The position numbers and the translations under genes were made by a program. From Escherichia phage vB_EfeM_pEP20: a stretch of DNA of 64,000 bases. Under the pieces are notes generated by a model that ran no database searches, was not told where the DNA came from, and saw only the letters and a list, made by a program, of their open reading frames with translations. Shown here piece by piece: positions 8,184 to 54,927 of the stretch. The stretch lies in sequence record OQ743992; one strand, given 5' to 3'. Positions within the stretch are counted from its first letter, which is position 1; each line of letters opens with the position of its first letter.

Positions 8184-10137
8184 TTAATACAGGTGGAATC
8201 GTTGAGCTTTGACGCTGCTCTTCAGTATAAACTTCACCAGTCTCACGGTCAAACACTTCATCCTCGTAATGAGGTAAGGAGTCATCATAATGGTCTTCAG
8301 CTTCACCAATACCAAACTGTTGACGAATATTCTCTGCTGCACCATCAATGTCAACACCACACCCAGAAGCTTTGATAAGACGTCCTGTGTCTGGATTGTA
8401 CCAAGTATGACCAGCGATACCTGTTGACTTACCATGACGACGACACTTAGTTAACTTGATTTTTGTCAAGTTTTTCTTAACAGGGTCTGGGTCAACCTTG
8501 TTACGCATTAACAGAATGTTGTTCATGGAAATCTGGAAGTATGCACCAGAACCCTTAATGTCCTCTTCAGAGATATCTCCACCTTCAGAGTTAGCTTTCT
8601 GACCACCTGCACTCTTACGAACGTGACAGACGTTAACCTGTGCATACTGATAGCGTTTGCAACGACGCAGTAGTTCAGACAAAACTTCCTCTTCATCAGT
8701 ATCAGAACGTGACAGAGCCAACGTAATAGGGTCAAGAATAATAATCTTACAGTCTAAACTGTTAACAAGATAGTCAACAAATTCCAGCAGGTTATCTTGG
8801 TCAATTGCCCCTTGATGGTCAACGATATGGATACGACGGCCTTTAGATAGTTCTGCGTGTGCTTCCTTCAATTCATCCCAATCACGTTCGTCATAAGGAA
8901 TCTCAGAAATCTGCTTGCTTAGGTGAATTGCACAGAGCATCTCCATCAACTCTTCATAGGTGTCTTCTACAGGAATTACACCGATATTGTAATCAGTTTC
9001 TTTCCAAGCTGAATAAATCATCTCACGAGTGTAAGCTGACTTACCTACTGAAGATGGTGCTGCAATAGTTGTAATCTCACCTAAACCATAACCACCATAA
9101 GTCAGCCTGTTCAAATCCCCGAAAGATTCTGGGAAAGGAATCAATGGAATCTGACCACGATTCTTCATTGCCTCAAAACCATCTGCAAAGTTCTTGATAC
9201 CAGCAGGACAGTAACGAGGTGCATTGTAGATACGCTGCTTAAATCCTTCCAGAACTGTGTCTTTCTCTTTATAGAACTTTGTCCACCATTCATTAAGGTC
9301 TTTTACACCTTCTGGATACTGGAACAAACGAACCTTCTCAATAGGTAAGATGCCAGCAGCCTCTTTTGTTGCTTTAGCACCTGCTTCATCGTTATCAAAG
9401 CACAAGTAAATCTCATCAAATGATGTGATGTACTGATAGTTGTCTTTGATAGACTTAATGTTTGCACCTGATGGAACAGATACGTGACAGTAATTCTTAC
9501 GACGAGACTTATCTTTAATTGCCAGAGAAGTCATGTAGATAGCTGTCGCACATTCCATCTCACCTTCCCAGATGAATAGTCGGTTCCCACCTTCTGGAGC
9601 AATCCATGAACCGAACATTGCCAGTTCACCTTTAATATCTCCAACACCACCTGAAAAGTCTTTTAACTTACCACGTAGGTGTTCTTTTGGATGGTCTTCT
9701 GGGTAACGGTGACGAACACGGTAACCAACATGTTCTAGCTTGCCATCTTCATTACGTTTGTAAGTCGGATAGAAATGTGCATCAATTTCACCGTCACTAT
9801 CAATGTCAACCTTAATACCTAAACGCTCAAGGACTTTTGCAGGAATCTTCCTGTCTTTCAAATCCATTGCTTCTAGGTTTTCTTTTACATCATCTAAATC
9901 CATTCCACGGAAAGTACGGTTTTTATTATCTGAACCAGTAGAATAAGTGCTCACGATTTGTCCTTTATCAAAATCCCACTCTGGGAAACCTTTGTTACAG
10001 CTAAAGCAAGTCATCGAATAAGAACCATCGTCATGATGGTAGATTGAACCCGCATCTGATGAACCACAACGTGGACATGCACAATGACCAATAAACTGAC
10101 CAGCCTCTTTCAATTTACGACCTTTAGACATTAGCAC
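8146..10137 (-). CDS. DNA primase-helicase (zinc ribbon + primase + DnaB-like helicase)
   Basis: 663 aa; N-terminal CPRCGSSD...CFSCNKG zinc ribbon, central primase-like region, C-terminal P-loop (APSSVGKSAYT) in a DnaB/gp4-like helicase region. Confidence 0.8.
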   Translation of the reverse strand: MLMSKGRKLKEAGQFIGHCACPRCGSSDAGSIYHHDDGSYSMTCFSCNKGFPEWDFDKGQIVSTYSTGSDNKNRTFRGMDLDDVKENLEAMDLKDRKIPAKVLERLGIKVDIDSDGEIDAHFYPTYKRNEDGKLEHVGYRVRHRYPEDHPKEHLRGKLKDFSGGVGDIKGELAMFGSWIAPEGGNRLFIWEGEMECATAIYMTSLAIKDKSRRKNYCHVSVPSGANIKSIKDNYQYITSFDEIYLCFDNDEAGAKATKEAAGILPIEKVRLFQYPEGVKDLNEWWTKFYKEKDTVLEGFKQRIYNAPRYCPAGIKNFADGFEAMKNRGQIPLIPFPESFGDLNRLTYGGYGLGEITTIAAPSSVGKSAYTREMIYSAWKETDYNIGVIPVEDTYEELMEMLCAIHLSKQISEIPYDERDWDELKEAHAELSKGRRIHIVDHQGAIDQDNLLEFVDYLVNSLDCKIIILDPITLALSRSDTDEEEVLSELLRRCKRYQYAQVNVCHVRKSAGGQKANSEGGDISEEDIKGSGAYFQISMNNILLMRNKVDPDPVKKNLTKIKLTKCRRHGKSTGIAGHTWYNPDTGRLIKASGCGVDIDGAAENIRQQFGIGEAEDHYDDSLPHYEDEVFDRETGEVYTEEQRQSSTIPPVLSEDADDCPFETE

Positions 10138-50984: not shown

Positions 50985-51249
50985 CTATAGGTGCATTAAA
51001 TCTTTTTAGAGAACTTCTAAGAACCTAAGCAACAAGGTTCCACAACAAGCTGTAATAACCTTAGAAGCCCTCTAAAAAGACCTAAATAGGTCTTTGCATA
51101 GTCTTGTTTAATCCGGTGACTAGAACCTTTGGAGAGCTTGATATTATCTCTTCTCCGTGACACCTACTAGGTGCTTTATCAGTGTGTACGACAATACACG
51201 AGGGATAAACCGAAAATGCGAGCAAGCATGGACGGTATAAATCTTATTA

Positions 51250-51339
51250 GGCGGTAAGTAAAGGAGTCGAACCCTCACCGTATCTCTACAGTGGCAACTG
51301 TTTTCAAGACAGTTTGGCTACCATTAGCCGCTACCTACC
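51250..51339 (-). tRNA. tRNA-Ser (anticodon TGA), class II
   Basis: Acceptor GGTAGGT/ACTTACC, perfect anticodon arm ACTGT-CTTGAAA-ACAGT, 20-nt variable arm, T-loop TTCGACT; CCA not fully encoded. Confidence 0.65.
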
Positions 51340-51352
51340 CCTAATAAGACTT

Positions 51353-51435
51353 TGGCATGGGACGGAGGAGTTGAACCACTTTGAAACGGTTTTGGAGGCC
51401 GTTGCTCATGCCTTAGAGTCTTAACATCGTCCCAT
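51353..51435 (-). tRNA. tRNA-like gene with Trp-type anticodon loop (CCA) and expanded 5' D region (atypical)
   Basis: Perfect 7-bp acceptor ATGGGAC/GTCCCAT with discriminator G and CCA; loop CTCCAAA on stem ACGG/CCGT; about 8 extra nt before the D-arm and a weak T-stem. Confidence 0.4.
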
Positions 51436-51587
51436 ACTTTAATTCGAAGCTTACCGTATTTTCGCAACACTGTAAAGCCCCTTCTCAGATTATTTACATG
51501 TTCTGGAAAACATGAGATACAGACCACCTCCTTACACGGAGACCCGATAAGGTCGTCTAAGCAATCTGCTAACTATTTGGCACACCC

Positions 51588-52149: not shown

Positions 52150-52225
52150 TGGTAGAAGTAGAGGGATTCGAACCCATCGCCTGTCAGATTAAAAGTCTGC
52201 CGCATCACCATTCTGCTACACTTCC
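52150..52225 (-). tRNA. tRNA-Lys (anticodon TTT)
   Basis: Acceptor GGAAGTG/TACTTCT (two G-U pairs), anticodon loop CTTTTAA, T-loop TTCGAAT with a weak stem. Confidence 0.55.
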
Positions 52226-52229
52226 ATTA

Positions 52230-52373
52230 AATTATCTTTGTAGATAAGCTACCCAGACTTGCTTAAGGTCTGTAGCGATGTGCCTTTTTGGGTTTAAATC
52301 TAGAATTTACCCTTTCACCCTTTGTGGTCGCATACTCACAGGTAAGCTTAATAACTTATCTACAAAGATAATT
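52230..52373. repeat. 19-bp perfect inverted repeat (AATTATCTTTGTAGATAAG) enclosing about 106 bp
   Basis: Arms at 52230-52248 and 52355-52373 are exact reverse complements; the enclosed sequence holds hairpin CCCAGAC-TTGCTTAAG-GTCTG. Confidence 0.6.
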
Positions 52374-52374
52374 A

Positions 52375-52506
52375 CCAGACCGTTGTTTATCATCTTAAGT
52401 GCTACCATTACACCAACTCGACATCTGCCGAGTGAAGGAATCGAACCTTCGCCTTTTCTTTACCGGAGAAATAGATTGTTTAAAGTTTGCTGTAAACGGT
52501 CTTCTG
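52375..52506 (-). ncRNA. candidate Y-RNA-like ncRNA U1 with embedded tRNA-like module (YrlA-like architecture)
   Basis: Minus-sense 5' CAGAAGACCGUUUACAGCAAAC ... ACGGUCUGG 3' with termini pairing (AGACCGU/ACGGUCU); interior has hairpin UUUCU-CCGGUAA-AGAAA, T-arm GAAGG-UUCGAUU-CCUUC, closed acceptor-like hairpin ACUCGGC-AGAU-GUCGAGU, D-arm GUG-UAAUGGUAG-CAC. Confidence 0.5.
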
Positions 52507-52519
52507 TAAATTTGTTGAG

Positions 52520-52604
52520 CCAGACCAAGTTTTAAATTTTTCAAAATTAAATTGGCTTGAAATTTTAAGTAACTTGCTGAATTTGGTCTTCTGCTCCTTT
52601 AAAG
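52520..52604 (-). ncRNA. candidate Y-RNA-like ncRNA U2
   Basis: Minus-sense 5' CAGAAGACCAAAUUCAGCAAG ... UUGGUCUGG 3'; terminal stem AGACCAA/UUGGUCU covaries with U1/U3. Confidence 0.45.
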
Positions 52605-52871: not shown

Positions 52872-52948
52872 CAGGGATTCGAACCCTGTGCCATTCGCTT
52901 AACAGGCGACCGCACATACCTTATGTGCTTCCTAACCTTAATACATTG
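52872..52948 (-). tRNA. tRNA-Asn (anticodon GTT)
   Basis: D-stem GCAC/GTGC, anticodon loop CTGTTAA, T-arm CAGGG-TTCGAAT-CCCTG; last acceptor pair mismatched. Confidence 0.65.
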
Positions 52949-52959
52949 CCAGACCGTGT

Positions 52960-53020
52960 TTTTTCTTTTATCCACAAAAAAGTAGTTTGTTGCTGAATAC
53001 GGTCTTCTGCAAAATTGGAG
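52960..53020 (-). ncRNA. candidate Y-RNA-like ncRNA U3
   Basis: Minus-sense 5' CAGAAGACCGUAUUCAGCAAC ... CACGGUCUGG 3'; internal hairpin CUUUUUU-GUGGAU-AAAAGA. Confidence 0.45.
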
Positions 53021-53026
53021 GCGGGT

Positions 53027-53103
53027 GCAGGAGTCGAACCTGCCGATACCATGCTAATGAGACATGTGAGACGCCCTTTCTCTATACCCGCAATTCTTAA
53101 TGA
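53027..53103 (-). tRNA. tRNA with anticodon CAT (second Met, or Ile2 if lysidine-modified)
   Basis: Anticodon arm CATGT-CTCATTA-GCATG, T-arm GCAGG-TTCGACT-CCTGC; first acceptor pair mismatched. Confidence 0.6.
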
Positions 53104-53114
53104 CCAGACCAAAT

Positions 53115-53187
53115 CTCTTCTTTGTCCGATTTCGTGTCAGATGAATAAGCTTAAGTTTGCTGTAATTGGTCTTCTGTCAAAACTGGC
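53115..53187 (-). ncRNA. candidate Y-RNA-like ncRNA U4
   Basis: Minus-sense 5' CAGAAGACCAAUUACAGCAAAC ... UUGGUCUGG 3'; same conserved 5' core and covarying terminal stem as U2. Confidence 0.45.
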
Positions 53188-53356: not shown

Positions 53357-53475
53357 AAACTCTATGTAACCACTTTAACATTATTTTTTAGTGGTTGTCA
53401 AGAACTTTTTTTAAAATATTTTTCAGTATCTTAGAAAAGCTCTCATTTCGTTTCTATGTAGAACATATTAAAGGG

Positions 53476-53501
53476 TATTAAACACATTGTCAATACCCTT
53501 T
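53476..53501 (-). terminator. hairpin downstream of the Ro60-like gene (terminator or promoter-overlapping operator)
   Basis: Minus-sense GGGTATT-GACAATGTGTTT-AATACCC followed by TTTAATAT; the same stretch contains TTGACA, so it may be a promoter for the tRNA array instead. Confidence 0.35.
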
Positions 53502-53511
53502 TTAAAACTTT

Positions 53512-54927
53512 TTACCAGATGTAACGGTCAATCATTACTGCTTTGAGCATTACGCTGATTGGGTCAAACTTCTCACCACCGAGCAGAGCTTTTAAAGTGG
53601 CTGGAGAGAACCCTGATACCATTGCTACACCGTTATCCTTAACAGACACTTCGCAAGTACCATTACGGTTTGCTAAGTACCAGAATACCAGTTGTGGCAT
53701 TTCGTATCCAGCTTTTTTGTACTTACTACGAATTGCTTCAAAGTTTGTACGACCATTTGCACCATCAACCTGATTGAACTCCATATCAGAGAAGATGATA
53801 AGCTTACTTGGCATATCTTTCTGAGTCAAGTTGTTTCTCTTACCTGTCTCAAGAATACGGTCAAAAGCTGCTTGTAAGTTAGTTGAGCCATATTCAACAT
53901 GACGCATCACCTGACGATGACGGTTTTTCAAATCACCACTCAGTTCGATGAAATGAGGGTTTGTTGAATAAACCATTAACTCATTCTTAAAGCAACCCGT
54001 ATTGCGTTCTGCTACATACAAGGCAAGGGATACACCAATATCAAGGGCAGTGATTGAACCAAGATTCACCCAAGACATTGAGCTTGAAACATCAGTCATA
54101 CACAGGATGTTCTCACCTTCTGCCATCCAGTTTGGTAGTGCTTTCCACTGCTCATTAGCCACATCTGCATTACCATACTTAATAGATTTAATCACATCGT
54201 ATGGGTAAACAGCACCAGCGTTAATCTTAACCTCACCCTTTGAGAGTGACTCGATGTAAGCTTTGTAACGTTCCCCATCTTTACGGTTAAAGAGTTTTTG
54301 GTAACGTGCAGTAGCGAGTGAAGGAATCTTGCTGTAGTCAATCTTACCAAACTCATTAGCAGAGATTTTTTGCTCAACCGTATCAGACAGTGCAGATAAC
54401 AGTGTGCGATACTCCTTCTCACTTAAGTTTGCAAACTTACAGAAACGTTTTACAAACTGTTTGTGGCGTGGTTTTACTCGTGGTAACCACTTAGCCGCTA
54501 AACCTGCTGTTGCAGGGTCTAGTAATGCTGCTTCTAAATGTTTGAAGGCATCTGTCTCAAAACGAGTGCCTACGAAGATTTTGAAGTCATCAAAACGACC
54601 AAGTTCTGCAATCTTATCCATAATGCGAAGAACCTGTGTAGGTTCTAAAACTTTATCTTCAATCGCTTGAAGTAAAACAGTTCGGAAAGCTTTACGCTCA
54701 CCCATACCTTCTCGTACATCTCGCATATGCAGTAAAATACGAACTGCAACATCAACATCCTCACGCAAAGCTTTGTAGAACAGGTCTGGTAAGATTTCTA
54801 CATTGCTACGGCTTGAGCCAGCGGCTTTGTAAAAGTCTACCAGAGCAGACATTGATGAAGTATGGTTTACAGCACCATTTTCAGTTCGACCTGCATGAAG
54901 GTGCGCATGTTTAAATAACTCGCTCAT
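53512..54927 (-). CDS. Ro60-like protein (TROVE-like helical N-terminal region + von Willebrand A domain with MIDAS motif)
   Basis: 471 aa; helical N-terminal 260 aa, then DVSSSM MIDAS motif and a C-terminal region that aligns from memory with the Ro60 vWA domain (DVSASM...LGSI, GSTN vs GGTD, IFSDME vs VFTDNE). Confidence 0.5.
   Translation of the reverse strand: MSELFKHAHLHAGRTENGAVNHTSSMSALVDFYKAAGSSRSNVEILPDLFYKALREDVDVAVRILLHMRDVREGMGERKAFRTVLLQAIEDKVLEPTQVLRIMDKIAELGRFDDFKIFVGTRFETDAFKHLEAALLDPATAGLAAKWLPRVKPRHKQFVKRFCKFANLSEKEYRTLLSALSDTVEQKISANEFGKIDYSKIPSLATARYQKLFNRKDGERYKAYIESLSKGEVKINAGAVYPYDVIKSIKYGNADVANEQWKALPNWMAEGENILCMTDVSSSMSWVNLGSITALDIGVSLALYVAERNTGCFKNELMVYSTNPHFIELSGDLKNRHRQVMRHVEYGSTNLQAAFDRILETGKRNNLTQKDMPSKLIIFSDMEFNQVDGANGRTNFEAIRSKYKKAGYEMPQLVFWYLANRNGTCEVSVKDNGVAMVSGFSPATLKALLGGEKFDPISVMLKAVMIDRYIW

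What the first reader, a model, noticed from the sequence alone, without database searches (positions are those of the whole stretch)
52230..52373. 19-bp perfect inverted repeat enclosing 106 bp between tRNA-Lys and element U1
AATTATCTTTGTAGATAAG at 52230-52248 is exactly complemented at 52355-52373. A 19-bp perfect repeat is unlikely by chance in this region. The enclosed sequence holds a miniature of the U motif (CCCAGAC-TTGCTTAAG-GTCTG). Possibilities are a long-stem RNA processing structure, a miniature inverted-repeat element, or a homing endonuclease target.
Basis: seen in the sequence. Interest (0 to 1): 0.5.

Follow-up and report, generated by a model that had tools for sequence, protein, structure and literature searches.

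The report
Pseudoknotted structured RNA in phage tRNA operon
The inverted repeat is the 24-base-pair closing stem of a conserved, roughly 144-nucleotide folded non-coding RNA that Felix O1-like phages encode just upstream of their lysine tRNA, in an operon of tRNAs and Y-RNA-like RNAs downstream of a Ro60-like protein gene; it is not a mobile element, and its function is not known.

Summary
AATTATCTTTGTAGATAAG at 52230-52248 is exactly complemented at 52355-52373. It is the only long inverted repeat in the 64 kb window.

The window is a Felixounavirus tRNA cluster transcribed on the minus strand. On that strand the repeat extends through G·U pairs to a 24-bp helix (P1). P1 closes an RNA with a 4-bp inner helix (P2), a hairpin with a palindromic loop (P3), and a 5-bp hairpin (P5) stacked on P1. 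The P5 loop pairs with the bases just after the P1 5' strand, forming a pseudoknot.

P1, P2, P5 and the pseudoknot keep pairing through compensatory changes across nine lineages whose neighbouring protein is only 53-99% identical. The element always lies 3-8 nt upstream of tRNA-Lys(UUU). It is single copy, absent from E. coli genomes, matches no Rfam family and is not coding.

It lies 1.1 kb downstream of a DUF2828/vWA protein whose model matches Ro60, beside four Y-RNA-like RNAs, one of them tRNA-like. I read it as a new structured RNA released by tRNA processing, possibly working with the Ro60-like particle. An RNase III processing role is the main rival. The mobile-element and homing-target readings are rejected.

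The parts
52230..52373 (-). The whole structured RNA (about 144 nt), here called the IR RNA: P1, J1/2, P2 enclosing P3, and P5
   Evidence: Minimum free energy -48.3 kcal/mol, z = -5.3. The covariance model scores 152.5 bits on the minus strand and 50.3 bits on the plus strand. Homologues occupy the same place in Ounavirinae-like phages.
52350..52373 (-). P1 5' strand (RNA positions 1-24), AAUUAUCUUUGUAGAUAAGUUAUU. This is one arm of the inverted repeat.
   Evidence: It forms 24 pairs with 52230-52253. Seven P1 pairs show changes on both sides among 28 variants.
52230..52253 (-). P1 3' strand (RNA positions 121-144), GGUAGCUUAUCUACAAAGAUAAUU. It is followed by UAAU and then tRNA-Lys.
52343..52349 (-). 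J1/2 segment AAGCUUA, the pseudoknot partner of the P5 loop
   Evidence: Loop and partner covary: UAAGC/GCUUA (type A), UUAGC/GCUAA (type B and L044), UAAGCAA/UUGCUUA (type C), AAGCAA/UUGCUU (type D), UGAACAA/UUGUUCA (L128), UAGUAA/UUACUA (type F).
52328..52331 (-). P2 5' strand, GCGA
   Evidence: It pairs with UCGC at 52275-52278. Six sequence versions of this helix occur across lineages, all complementary.
52275..52278 (-). P2 3' strand, UCGC, followed by UA and then P5
52290..52312 (-). P3 hairpin, GGGU-AAAUUCUAGAUUUAA-ACCC. Its loop carries the 6-nt palindrome UCUAGA (52299-52304).
   Evidence: The stem covaries: GGGU/ACCC, AGC/GCU, GGGAC/GUCCC. The loop palindrome is UCUAGA in types A and B, ACUAGU in type C and AACGUU in type E. 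There is none in type D.
52254..52272 (-). P5 hairpin, CAGAC-CUUAAGCAA-GUCUG. It abuts the P1 3' strand, which allows coaxial stacking.
   Evidence: 100% paired, with 2 of 5 pairs changed on both sides. Present in all nine lineages.
52150..52225 (-). tRNA-Lys(UUU), always 3-8 nt downstream of the IR RNA. Its 5' end is the presumed RNase P cut that makes the 3' end of the IR RNA.
   Evidence: ARAGORN. The adjacency holds in L042, L043, L044 and L125-L129 even though the upstream neighbour differs. The RNase P step is inference.
52374..52510 (-). U1, a neighbouring Y-RNA-like RNA with YrlA topology: a bulged closing helix, the motif UUUACAGCAA, a V arm, a T arm (GAAGGUUCGAUUCCUUC), an acceptor-like stem-loop and a D arm (GUGUAAUGGUAGCAC)
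   Evidence: Fold. Sub-threshold tRNA match of 24.7 bits. Topology as described for YrlA in PMC4201824. Its last two bases overlap the first two bases of P1.
53512..54927 (-). Gene for a Ro60-like protein (DUF2828 + DUF7788/vWA), at the head of the tRNA/ncRNA cluster
   Evidence: Pfam. AlphaFold2 model with pLDDT 88.5. Top Foldseek matches are Ro60 entries 9nfa, 2i91, 2nvo and phage phiLo 9l5y, at E about 1e-8 and query-normalised TM 0.48-0.64.
53372..53493 (-). Two promoter-like sites upstream of the first tRNA (tRNA-Pro). No terminator-like site lies on the minus strand between them and the IR RNA.
   Evidence: These are consensus matches only.

Best explanation
The inverted repeat is the closing helix of a conserved structured non-coding RNA of about 144 nt, read from the minus strand. 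It lies inside the phage's polycistronic tRNA and small-RNA operon.

Shown: the RNA has a 24-bp terminal helix (P1) and a 4-5-bp inner helix (P2) that encloses a hairpin (P3). In most lineages the P3 loop carries a 6-nt palindrome. A 5-6-bp hairpin (P5) abuts the P1 3' strand. Its 9-nt loop pairs with the bases just after the P1 5' strand, forming a pseudoknot.

Inferred: the RNA is transcribed from the promoters upstream of tRNA-Pro. RNase P cutting at the 5' end of tRNA-Lys(UUU), 4 nt after P1, would make its 3' end. Maturation of the upstream RNA would make its 5' end. P1 would then clamp both ends and protect the RNA from exonucleases.

Proposed function, with lower confidence: it acts as a stable RNA in the same system as the four neighbouring Y-RNA-like RNAs and the Ro60-like protein encoded at the head of the operon. 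It might serve as a further RNA ligand or scaffold, possibly dimerising through the palindromic P3 loop.

My probabilities: about 0.9 that it is a selected RNA structure on the minus strand; about 0.6 that a stable excised RNA exists; about 0.3 that it works with the Ro60-like protein.
For: Structure. P1 plus P5 are 99.7% paired in 28 distinct variants. Nine pairs changed on both sides, against 4.6 ± 1.0 in shuffles (0 of 500 reached the observed value) and 0-1 in slid controls. RNAalifold finds the same helices.

Strand. The five column pairs that hold G·U pairs would be A·C mismatches on the plus strand. The covariance model scores 152.5 bits on the minus strand and 50.3 on the plus strand.

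Depth of conservation. The layout is the same in nine lineages. These are types A and B (Felixounavirus, Mooglevirus, Suspvirus), type C (L042, L125), type D (L043), type E (L044 Yersinia phage P778, L127, L128, L129) and type F (L126). Their arm sequences are unrelated, and every representative folds better than shuffles, with z from -3.6 to -7.2. The model recovers L126 (E = 0.011) and L043 (E about 1) at the expected place.

Inner helices. P2 occurs in six complementary sequence versions. The pseudoknot partner covaries with the P5 loop in 7 of 9 lineages.

Context. All 26 tRNAs are on the minus strand. Promoter-like sites lie upstream of tRNA-Pro and no terminator lies in between. The Ro60-like gene is 1.1 kb upstream. 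Four RNAs with a bulged closing helix and the CAGCAA motif lie next to the element, one with YrlA topology. RNAs of that kind accompany DUF2828 genes in 22 of 75 distant phage loci, with 30 hits on the gene strand, 4 on the opposite strand and 2 in shuffled sequence.

Literature. In the felixounavirus Bas63, the Ro60-like gp130 counters the ppl defence system. Its authors only guessed that partner Y RNAs lie in the tRNA array (PMC11482910).
Against: No expression or processing data were available, so the excised RNA is an inference.

The IR RNA has none of the sequence motifs known to bind Ro60 (GGUCCGA, GNCGAAG, CGAA). It matches no Rfam family, including Y_RNA and YrlA.

The P5 loop, the only part that resembles the Y-like U elements, appears to be engaged in a pseudoknot. 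That weakens the idea that it is a protein-binding copy of the U motif.

The IR RNA is confined to the Ounavirinae-like clade. It was not found in 75 more distant DUF2828 loci, nor in L050 and L130, so it is not a general partner of this protein family.

Phage SP116 lacks it, together with tRNA-Lys and half of U1. If that assembly is right, the RNA is dispensable in the laboratory.

The sequences form few independent lineages, so the shuffle statistics overstate significance. The pseudoknot is unclear in L127 and L129.
Confidence: 0.55

Rival explanations
1. It is purely a cis-acting processing and insulating element of the tRNA operon. The roughly 24-bp duplex would be an RNase III substrate, or an exonuclease block or folding insulator, that separates the upstream RNA from tRNA-Lys. 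The excised piece would have no function of its own.
For: P1 is long enough for RNase III; about two helical turns are needed (established knowledge). A second, unrelated long-stem hairpin has the same end sequences (UCUUU...AAAGAUUUAAU). It lies 6 nt upstream of tRNA-Leu(UAG) at 51001-51085 on the minus strand, with z = -6.1, and has a counterpart in L042. Thirteen-nt arms also flank tRNA-Ser(UGA) (I7). From my own recollection, not checked here, RNase III takes part in processing the phage T4 tRNA precursor.
Against: A simple cleavage stem does not explain the conserved interior. P2 keeps pairing in six sequence versions, P3 has conserved or palindromic loops, and P5 and its pseudoknot persist across lineages whose arms share no sequence. 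The hairpin upstream of tRNA-Leu has no such interior.
Confidence: 0.25
2. It is an unrecognised self-cleaving ribozyme or ligand-sensing RNA. The pseudoknotted junction would be an active site or a binding pocket.
For: The fold is compact and pseudoknotted, with semi-conserved unpaired bases near the junction: GRGUAKGC before P2 and AC before P5.
Against: No Rfam ribozyme or riboswitch family matched, even at E up to 10. No invariant core of nucleotides is shared by all nine lineages. The location inside a tRNA operon gives a riboswitch nothing obvious to regulate.
Confidence: 0.07
3. It is a DNA-level element: a cruciform or protein-binding palindrome, or a homing endonuclease target.
For: The arms form a perfect 19-bp DNA palindrome and the loop holds a 6-bp palindrome (TCTAGA). 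Homing endonuclease genes do occur in this tRNA cluster in relatives: an HNH gene lies between tRNA-Ile and tRNA-Lys in Felix O1, and another HNH gene lies upstream of tRNA-Ile in tootiki.
Against: Pairing is kept partly through G·U pairs, which exist only in RNA and only on the minus strand. The short internal helices and the pseudoknot covary. None of the fetched genomes has an insertion at this site.
Confidence: 0.03
4. It is a miniature inverted-repeat transposable element.
For: Terminal inverted repeats enclose about 100 bp.
Against: It is single copy in the window and has no match in E. coli genomes. It occupies a fixed syntenic position in about 245 of 251 relatives and diverges with them. 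The one absence examined is a T-arm recombination deletion that also removes neighbouring genes. No flanking target-site duplication is evident in the sequence read (GGT / TAAT).
Confidence: 0.01
5. It is part of the 85-aa open reading frame on the plus strand (52278-52535), which some records annotate as a hypothetical protein.
For: The ORF exists in the window and is annotated in phage AYO145A, where it is described as similar to a wV8 hypothetical protein.
Against: The ORF is absent or broken in the type B, C, D and F homologues. It also runs antisense through the tRNA-like U1.
Confidence: 0.01

Closest known systems
Bacterial and phage Y RNAs, including YrlA (Rfam RF02553; Chen et al. 2014, PMC4201824; phage phiLo Yrl1 and Yrl2, PMC12135203)
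   Same: Both are small RNAs whose 5' and 3' ends pair in a long stem, encoded on the same strand close to a Ro60-type gene, in several different copies per genome. The neighbouring U1 has the YrlA order of arms (stem, V, T, acceptor-like stem-loop, D).
   Different: The IR RNA has no T or D arm, none of the known Ro60-binding motifs and no Rfam match. Its partner protein, if it has one, belongs to the DUF2828 branch rather than to canonical TROVE/Rsr. Its interior is a pseudoknotted multi-helix junction.
Dictyostelium Class I RNAs (Rfam RF01414; Kjellin et al. 2021, PMC7919456)
   Same: The U elements beside the IR RNA, and similar RNAs next to DUF2828 genes in many phages, share four Class I features. 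They start with AAG or AGA. They have a short terminal stem. The motif (C)UUACAGCAA follows the 5' strand directly. They end with CUG(U/A). RF01414 is their best non-tRNA Rfam match, though below threshold. P5 of the IR RNA copies this layout in miniature.
   Different: All matches score 15-24 bits, against a gathering score of 41.5. In the IR RNA the motif sits in a hairpin loop that pairs elsewhere in the RNA. Whether Dictyostelium encodes a DUF2828 protein could not be checked.
Phage T4 stable RNAs C and D (species 1 and 2), encoded in the T4 tRNA cluster
   Same: They are stable small RNAs of 119-139 nt and, as far as I know, of unknown function. They are embedded in a phage tRNA operon and so are presumably released by tRNA-processing enzymes (annotation).
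   Different: There is no sequence or structural similarity. T4 rnaC carries a T-arm-like 3' domain and lacks a long terminal stem. T4 has no Ro60-like gene in the stretch examined.
RNase III processing stems (rRNA operon stems, phage T7 early mRNA sites)
   Same: Both are long, nearly perfect duplexes formed by sequences flanking a transcript segment within a polycistronic RNA.
   Different: This stem encloses a conserved structured domain rather than a mature rRNA or a simple loop. Cleavage was not tested.

Membership tests
Y RNA (partner of Ro60) | The 5' and 3' ends pair to form a terminal stem | tested here: met
   A 24-bp P1 supported by covariation.
Y RNA (partner of Ro60) | Encoded close to a Ro60-type gene | tested here: met
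   The 471-aa ORF 1.1 kb upstream on the same strand has a Ro60-like predicted fold: E about 1e-8, query-normalised TM 0.48-0.64. Caveat: the whole tRNA cluster is 'close' to this gene.
Y RNA (partner of Ro60) | A conserved Ro60-binding motif in the stem (GGUCCGA, GNCGAAG or CGAA) | tested here: not met
   No such motif occurs in P1 or elsewhere in 52230-52373 (motifs taken from PMC4201824 and PMC12135203).
Y RNA (partner of Ro60) | Matches the Rfam Y_RNA or YrlA covariance models | tested here: not met
   No match even at E up to 10.
Y RNA (partner of Ro60) | Physically bound by the Ro60 protein | not testable with these tools
   This needs immunoprecipitation or gel-shift assays.
YrlA-type tRNA-like Y RNA | T arm and D arm flanking an acceptor-like stem-loop | tested here: not met
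   The IR RNA has none of these. The neighbouring U1 (52374-52510) has all of them.
Stem + UUNCAGCAA RNAs next to DUF2828 genes (Class I-like) | A short stem beginning with AG and ending with CUG, with the unpaired motif U(U/A)C(A/C)GCAA directly after the 5' strand | tested here: inconclusive
   P5 has AGAC...GUCU-G and a CUUAAGCAA loop. However, it is internal rather than terminal, its loop varies (AGUAA, GAACAA, GCACAA), and the loop covaries with a partner in J1/2.
Miniature inverted-repeat transposable element | Multiple dispersed copies, and presence/absence polymorphism at otherwise intact sites | tested here: not met
   Single copy. No match in E. coli genomes. Fixed synteny. The only absence examined is a larger recombination deletion.
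Homing endonuclease target site | Some relatives carry an endonuclease gene or intron inserted at the site | tested here: not met
   No insertion in the 14 annotated loci or the 26 viral contigs examined.
RNase III substrate | A continuous duplex of about 20 bp or more | tested here: met
   P1 has 24 bp in the window and about 17 to 30 bp in the other lineages.
RNase III substrate | Staggered cleavage within the stem in vivo or in vitro | not testable with these tools
   This needs end mapping in rnc+ and rnc- hosts.
Known ribozymes and riboswitches (Rfam 15) | A match to a curated covariance model | tested here: not met

The most novel reading that the evidence does not exclude
The IR RNA would be a new class of pseudoknotted RNA that dimerises through its palindromic P3 loop. 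It would work with the phage's DUF2828-type Ro60 particle, whose gene in the related phage Bas63 counters the ppl defence system.

Its neighbours, the stem + UUNCAGCAA RNAs, would be the long-sought Y RNAs of this Ro60 branch. They would belong to the same RNA class as the Dictyostelium Class I RNAs, whose molecular role is still unclear.
Probability: 0.2. Interest if true: 0.8.

Novelty: new variant of a known kind. Interest (0 to 1): 0.62.

Why it matters
Large tRNA clusters in phages are usually annotated as tRNAs plus empty spacers or spurious ORFs. Here a spacer holds a deeply conserved, pseudoknotted RNA with no Rfam family. It lies beside Y-RNA-like RNAs and downstream of a Ro60-like gene. 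A recent preprint links that gene's homologue in phage Bas63 to evasion of a bacterial defence system, without having found its RNA partners.

Defining these RNAs gives concrete molecules to test: by Northern blot, by immunoprecipitation, and by deletion in Bas63 grown on ppl-carrying hosts. It corrects the 'hypothetical protein' annotation over 52278-52535. It also suggests a testable link between phage Ro60-type particles and the Dictyostelium Class I RNAs.

Tried and rejected
Rfam scans. The region was scanned at permissive thresholds. Nothing matched the IR RNA, and the U elements gave only sub-threshold tRNA and Class I matches. At gathering threshold, 14 distant loci gave only tRNAs.

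Protein sequence searches. Searches of the Ro60-like protein against PDB sequences found nothing, either as a single sequence or as a profile. Only the fold comparison showed the Ro60 relationship.

Literature searches that gave nothing useful. A search on 'TROVE' was swamped by the ordinary English word. 'DUF2828' returned only plant and tardigrade papers. Searches for felixounavirus transcriptomes and for a Dictyostelium TROVE protein found nothing relevant. Avesson et al. 2011, which lists the Class I RNA-binding proteins, is not held. I did not find Burroughs & Aravind 2016 in the library.

Unavailable or failed tools. The afdb50 fold search, meant to ask whether Dictyostelium has a DUF2828 protein, was not available. 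It was replaced by mononucleotide shuffles.

Alignment limits. The MAFFT alignment A2 misaligns P2 and the P5 loop between types A and B. Those helices were therefore checked by direct extraction rather than with the count of structure pairs.

Ideas rejected. The apparent insertions in phages S19cd and EC6 were second copies of a U repeat. Phage T4 rnaC and rnaD are not structural relatives. An extension of P5 by CUAC/GUAG was rejected in favour of extending P1, because type C keeps AGCUGU/ACAGCU there.

Full report
The sequence read shows AATTATCTTTGTAGATAAG at 52230-52248 and its exact reverse complement at 52355-52373, with 106 nt between them. The repeat finder extends the arms to 22 nt with one mismatch (I1). 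The 19-mer, allowing up to three mismatches, occurs nowhere else in the window; the expected count is 0.06, and 0 of 100 shuffles gave two matches. A window-wide scan for inverted repeats of at least 17 nt with arms no more than 400 nt apart returns only this one and an AT-only palindrome. The enclosed CCCAGAC-TTGCTTAAG-GTCTG lies at 52253-52273.

**2. Where it lies.** The window comes from a Felix O1-like phage: 257 records of Felixounavirus and related Ounavirinae match at 80-99% identity. ARAGORN finds 26 tRNA genes between 48081 and 53345, all on the minus strand. Promoter-like sites on the minus strand lie upstream of the first tRNA, at 53465-53493 and 53372-53401. No terminator-like site on that strand lies between them and the repeat. 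The element is therefore most simply part of a polycistronic minus-strand transcript. That is an inference.

**3. It is an RNA structure on the minus strand.**
- As minus-strand RNA the arms extend to 24 pairs, 21 Watson-Crick and 3 U·G. On the plus strand the U·G pairs would be A·C mismatches.
- The 152-nt stretch folds at -48.3 kcal/mol, with z = -5.3 against dinucleotide shuffles.
- I collected 26 distinct variants from annotated phages and IMG/VR contigs and two more from a lineage whose neighbouring protein is 62% identical.
- On that 28-sequence alignment, RNAalifold predicts the long helix P1 and the small hairpin P5.
- Counting pairs for P1 plus P5 gives 99.7% of cells paired. Nine pairs changed on both sides, against 4.6 ± 1.0 in column shuffles (0 of 500 reached the observed value) and 0-1 when the 3' partners are slid by one to three columns.
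- A covariance model built from this alignment scores the window at 152.5 bits on the minus strand and 50.3 on the plus strand.

**4. The same architecture occurs in much more distant phages.** I followed the neighbouring protein to relatives at 51-63% identity and fetched eight further contigs. Seven of them (L042, L043, L044, L125, L126, L127, L129), plus L128, carry the same layout 3-8 nt upstream of tRNA-Lys(UUU). The layout is a 17-30-bp terminal helix of unrelated sequence, a variable interior, and a 5-6-bp hairpin with a 7-9-nt loop abutting the 3' strand of the long helix. The upstream neighbour differs between lineages: U1 here, a hairpin RNA in L042, and tRNA-Ala in L126. The adjacency to tRNA-Lys(UUU) does not change. 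All nine lineage representatives fold better than shuffles, with z from -3.6 to -7.2. The model recovers L126 at E = 0.011 and L043 at E about 1 in the right place. It finds nothing in 75 loci from more distant phages. L050 and L130 also lack the element. The RNA is therefore confined to an Ounavirinae-like clade.

**5. The interior is also structured.**
- P2, a 4-5-bp helix, is present in every representative in six sequence versions: GCGA/UCGC, GAGU/ACUC, GCGG/CCGC, GCAC/GUGC, GUGAC/GUCAC and GCAAC/GUUGC.
- P2 encloses the hairpin P3. The P3 stem covaries: GGGU/ACCC, AGC/GCU, GGGAC/GUCCC, GUG/CAC, GCG/CGC.
- The P3 loop carries a 6-nt palindrome in most lineages: UCUAGA in types A and B, ACUAGU in type C, AACGUU in the four type E lineages. 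Type D has none, and type F is unclear.
- The P5 loop is complementary to the bases that follow the P1 5' strand by 0-6 nt, and loop and partner change together. The pairs are UAAGC/GCUUA (A), UUAGC/GCUAA (B and L044), UAAGCAA/UUGCUUA (C), AAGCAA/UUGCUU (D), UGAACAA/UUGUUCA (L128) and UAGUAA/UUACUA (F).
- Two lineages, L127 and L129, show no clear partner at that place.
- I read this as a pseudoknot that ties the junction together. It is the least certain helix, because the lineages are few.

**6. What it is not.**
- It is single copy and has no match in 5,426 complete E. coli genomes.
- It keeps its place in about 245 of 251 related records.
- The one absence I examined, phage SP116, is a deletion of roughly 250 nt. 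It fuses the T-loop of U1 to the T-loop of tRNA-Lys and removes half of U1, the whole element and two-thirds of the tRNA.
- No fetched genome has an insertion in the element. The two-piece matches in phages S19cd and EC6 were a second copy of a nearby repeat.
- The 85-aa plus-strand ORF that some records annotate over 52278-52535 is not conserved in types B, C, D or F.
- No Rfam family matches, even at E up to 10.

**7. The surroundings.**
- At the head of the cluster, ORF 53512-54927 (minus strand, 471 aa) carries Pfam DUF2828 and DUF7788. Sequence searches against solved structures found nothing.
- An AlphaFold2 model built on 40 homologues has pLDDT 88.5 and pTM 0.88. Its top nine Foldseek matches in the PDB are all full-length Ro60-type structures. 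They are animal Ro60, Deinococcus Rsr, and the Ro60 and TROVE-domain entries 9l5y and 9kop from Thermus phage phiLo (identified in PMC12135203). E ranges from about 1e-8 to 3e-7 and query-normalised TM from 0.48 to 0.64.
- A preprint on the felixounavirus Bas63 noted the same structural similarity for gp130 and showed that the gene counters the ppl defence system. Its authors only guessed that some 'tRNA genes' might be its Y RNAs (PMC11482910).
- Between the tRNAs the window holds four RNAs (Ua-Ud) that share a bulged closing helix, of the form NNNN-AGA-AGACCNN ... NNGGUCU-G-NNNN, followed by UU(N)CAGCAA.
It contains a V-like arm, a T arm, an acceptor-like stem-loop and a D arm, in the order described for bacterial YrlA RNAs (PMC4201824).

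**8. The U-type RNAs are a general companion of this protein family.** In 75 IMG/VR loci encoding relatives at 39-47% identity, I searched for one pattern: a 6-bp stem, then U(U/A)C(A/C)GCA(A/G), then the closing strand followed by (C/U)UG. It occurs 30 times on the gene strand in 22 loci, 4 times on the opposite strand and twice in shuffled sequence. Many of these RNAs contain T and D arms and give sub-threshold matches to Rfam YrlA, at E = 6e-4 and 6e-3. Others are only 50-62 nt long. Their best Rfam match is the Dictyostelium Class I RNA family (19.7-24.3 bits against a gathering score of 41.5), as is also the case for the U elements of the window. Class I RNAs are defined by a start of AAG, a short terminal stem, an 11-nt motif directly after the 5' strand and an end of CUGU (PMC7919456). 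The phage RNAs share all four features. Whether Dictyostelium has a DUF2828 protein could not be tested.

**9. How the element most likely works.** The structure and the strand are shown. The biogenesis is inferred from how tRNA operons are processed. RNase P cutting at the 5' end of tRNA-Lys, 4 nt after P1, would make the 3' end. Maturation of the upstream RNA would make the 5' end; in L126 that upstream RNA is a tRNA that abuts P1. P1 would then hold both ends in a duplex. The function is a proposal. The RNA sits in a cluster of Y-like RNAs under a Ro60-like gene, and P5 copies the Y-like module in miniature. It may therefore be a further RNA component of that particle. The palindromic loop could allow dimers, and phage phiLo Ro60 was reported to form dimeric assemblies with its Y-like RNA (PMC12135203).

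Four points count against this:
- It has no known Ro60-binding motif.
- The P5 loop appears to be paired within the RNA.
- The element is restricted to one clade.
- It is missing from phage SP116.

I put the Ro60 link at about 0.3.

**10. The main rival.** P1 may simply be a processing or insulating stem, for example an RNase III site. A second long-stem hairpin with the same end sequences lies 6 nt upstream of tRNA-Leu(UAG), at 51001-51085 on the minus strand. It folds with z = -6.1 and has a counterpart in L042. Short arms also flank tRNA-Ser(UGA) (I7). This fits a general use of duplexes in maturing this operon. It does not explain the conserved interior of the element studied here. The two roles are not exclusive.

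**11. Verdict.** The finding is real and is not chance. It is the closing helix of a previously undescribed, pseudoknotted structured RNA of Ounavirinae-like phages. The RNA is tied to tRNA-Lys(UUU) and lies in a Ro60/Y-RNA-like operon. It is closest in kind to Y RNAs and to the stable RNAs of phage tRNA clusters, but it fails the membership tests for every named family. I rate it a new variant of a known kind, with interest 0.62.

Noticed in passing
window 52374-52510 (- strand): U1 is a circularly permuted tRNA-like RNA with the YrlA order of arms. It has a bulged closing helix (AGACCGUU/AACGGUCU), the motif UUUACAGCAA and a V-like arm (UUUCU-CCGGUAA-AGAAA). These are followed by a T arm (GAAGG-UUCGAUU-CCUUC), an acceptor-like stem-loop (ACUCGGC-AGAU-GUCGAGU) and a D arm (GUGU-AAUGGUA-GCAC). 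ARAGORN does not call it, and Rfam tRNA scores it at 24.7 bits, below threshold.
   Followed up: partly
window 53101-53179, 52946-53012, 52517-52596 (- strand): Three further hairpin RNAs (Ua, Ub, Uc) share the same bulged closing helix, NNNN-AGA-AGACCNN...NNGGUCU-G-NNNN. The motif (A/U)UU(A)CAGCAA follows it directly. They lie between tRNA genes. Their best non-tRNA Rfam match is the Dictyostelium Class I RNA family, below threshold.
   Followed up: partly
window 53512-54927 (- strand): The 471-aa DUF2828 + DUF7788 protein has a Ro60-like predicted fold (TROVE-like repeats plus a vWA domain), which sequence searches against the PDB missed. More than 2,300 homologues were found, mostly in phages. 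At least 594 viral contigs encode one.
   Followed up: yes
L050-L124 (75 IMG/VR loci); for example L080 3898-4017, L109 5888-6491, L054 151-439, L071 4291-4398, L119 6188-7233: Very diverse phages carry one to five RNAs with the same signature beside their DUF2828 gene and on the same strand. The signature is (A/U)AG, a 5-7-bp stem, UU(A)CAGCAA, a variable middle, the closing strand and CUG(A/U). Some are 50-62 nt long, like Dictyostelium Class I RNAs. Others enclose a tRNA-like domain, like YrlA. I found no description of this association in the papers I could search.
   Followed up: partly
window 51001-51085 (- strand): A second long-stem RNA hairpin (about 26 bp, z = -6.1) lies 6 nt upstream of tRNA-Leu(UAG). 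Its end sequences resemble those of P1 (UCUUU...AAAGAUUUAAU). A counterpart lies in L042 at 9906-9993.
   Followed up: partly
window 51239-51251 and 51340-51352: Thirteen-nt inverted arms (92% complementary) bracket tRNA-Ser(UGA), in the manner of the processing stems that flank rRNAs.
   Followed up: no
L002 (Salmonella phage SP116) 1486-1560: A deletion of about 250 nt fuses the T-loop of U1 to the T-loop of tRNA-Lys(UUU). It shows that tRNA-like T arms act as recombination substrates within the cluster. If the assembly is right, it also shows that the IR RNA, U1 and this tRNA are dispensable.
   Followed up: yes
window 51353-51440 (- strand); the same element in L045 near 7848 and L042 near 9616: There is a tRNA-like sequence with a good T arm (GGGGUUCAACUCCUC) and a CCA-like 3' end that ARAGORN does not call. 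A possible anticodon loop reads CUCCAAA. It may be a degenerate or unusual tRNA.
   Followed up: no
window 52299-52304 and the equivalent loops in relatives: The apical loop of P3 holds a 6-nt palindrome whose sequence changes between lineages while it stays palindromic (UCUAGA, ACUAGU, AACGUU). That pattern is expected for loop-loop dimerisation. It is absent in type D.
   Followed up: partly
window 52278-52535 (+ strand): The 85-aa ORF annotated as a hypothetical protein in several felixounavirus records overlaps the IR RNA and runs antisense through U1. It is not conserved in related lineages and is very probably not a gene.
   Followed up: yes
L014 (Felix O1) 217-702; L008 (tootiki) 1-348: HNH homing endonuclease genes are inserted among the tRNA genes in some relatives. 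In Felix O1 the gene lies between tRNA-Ile and tRNA-Lys, where the window has tRNA-Met.
   Followed up: no
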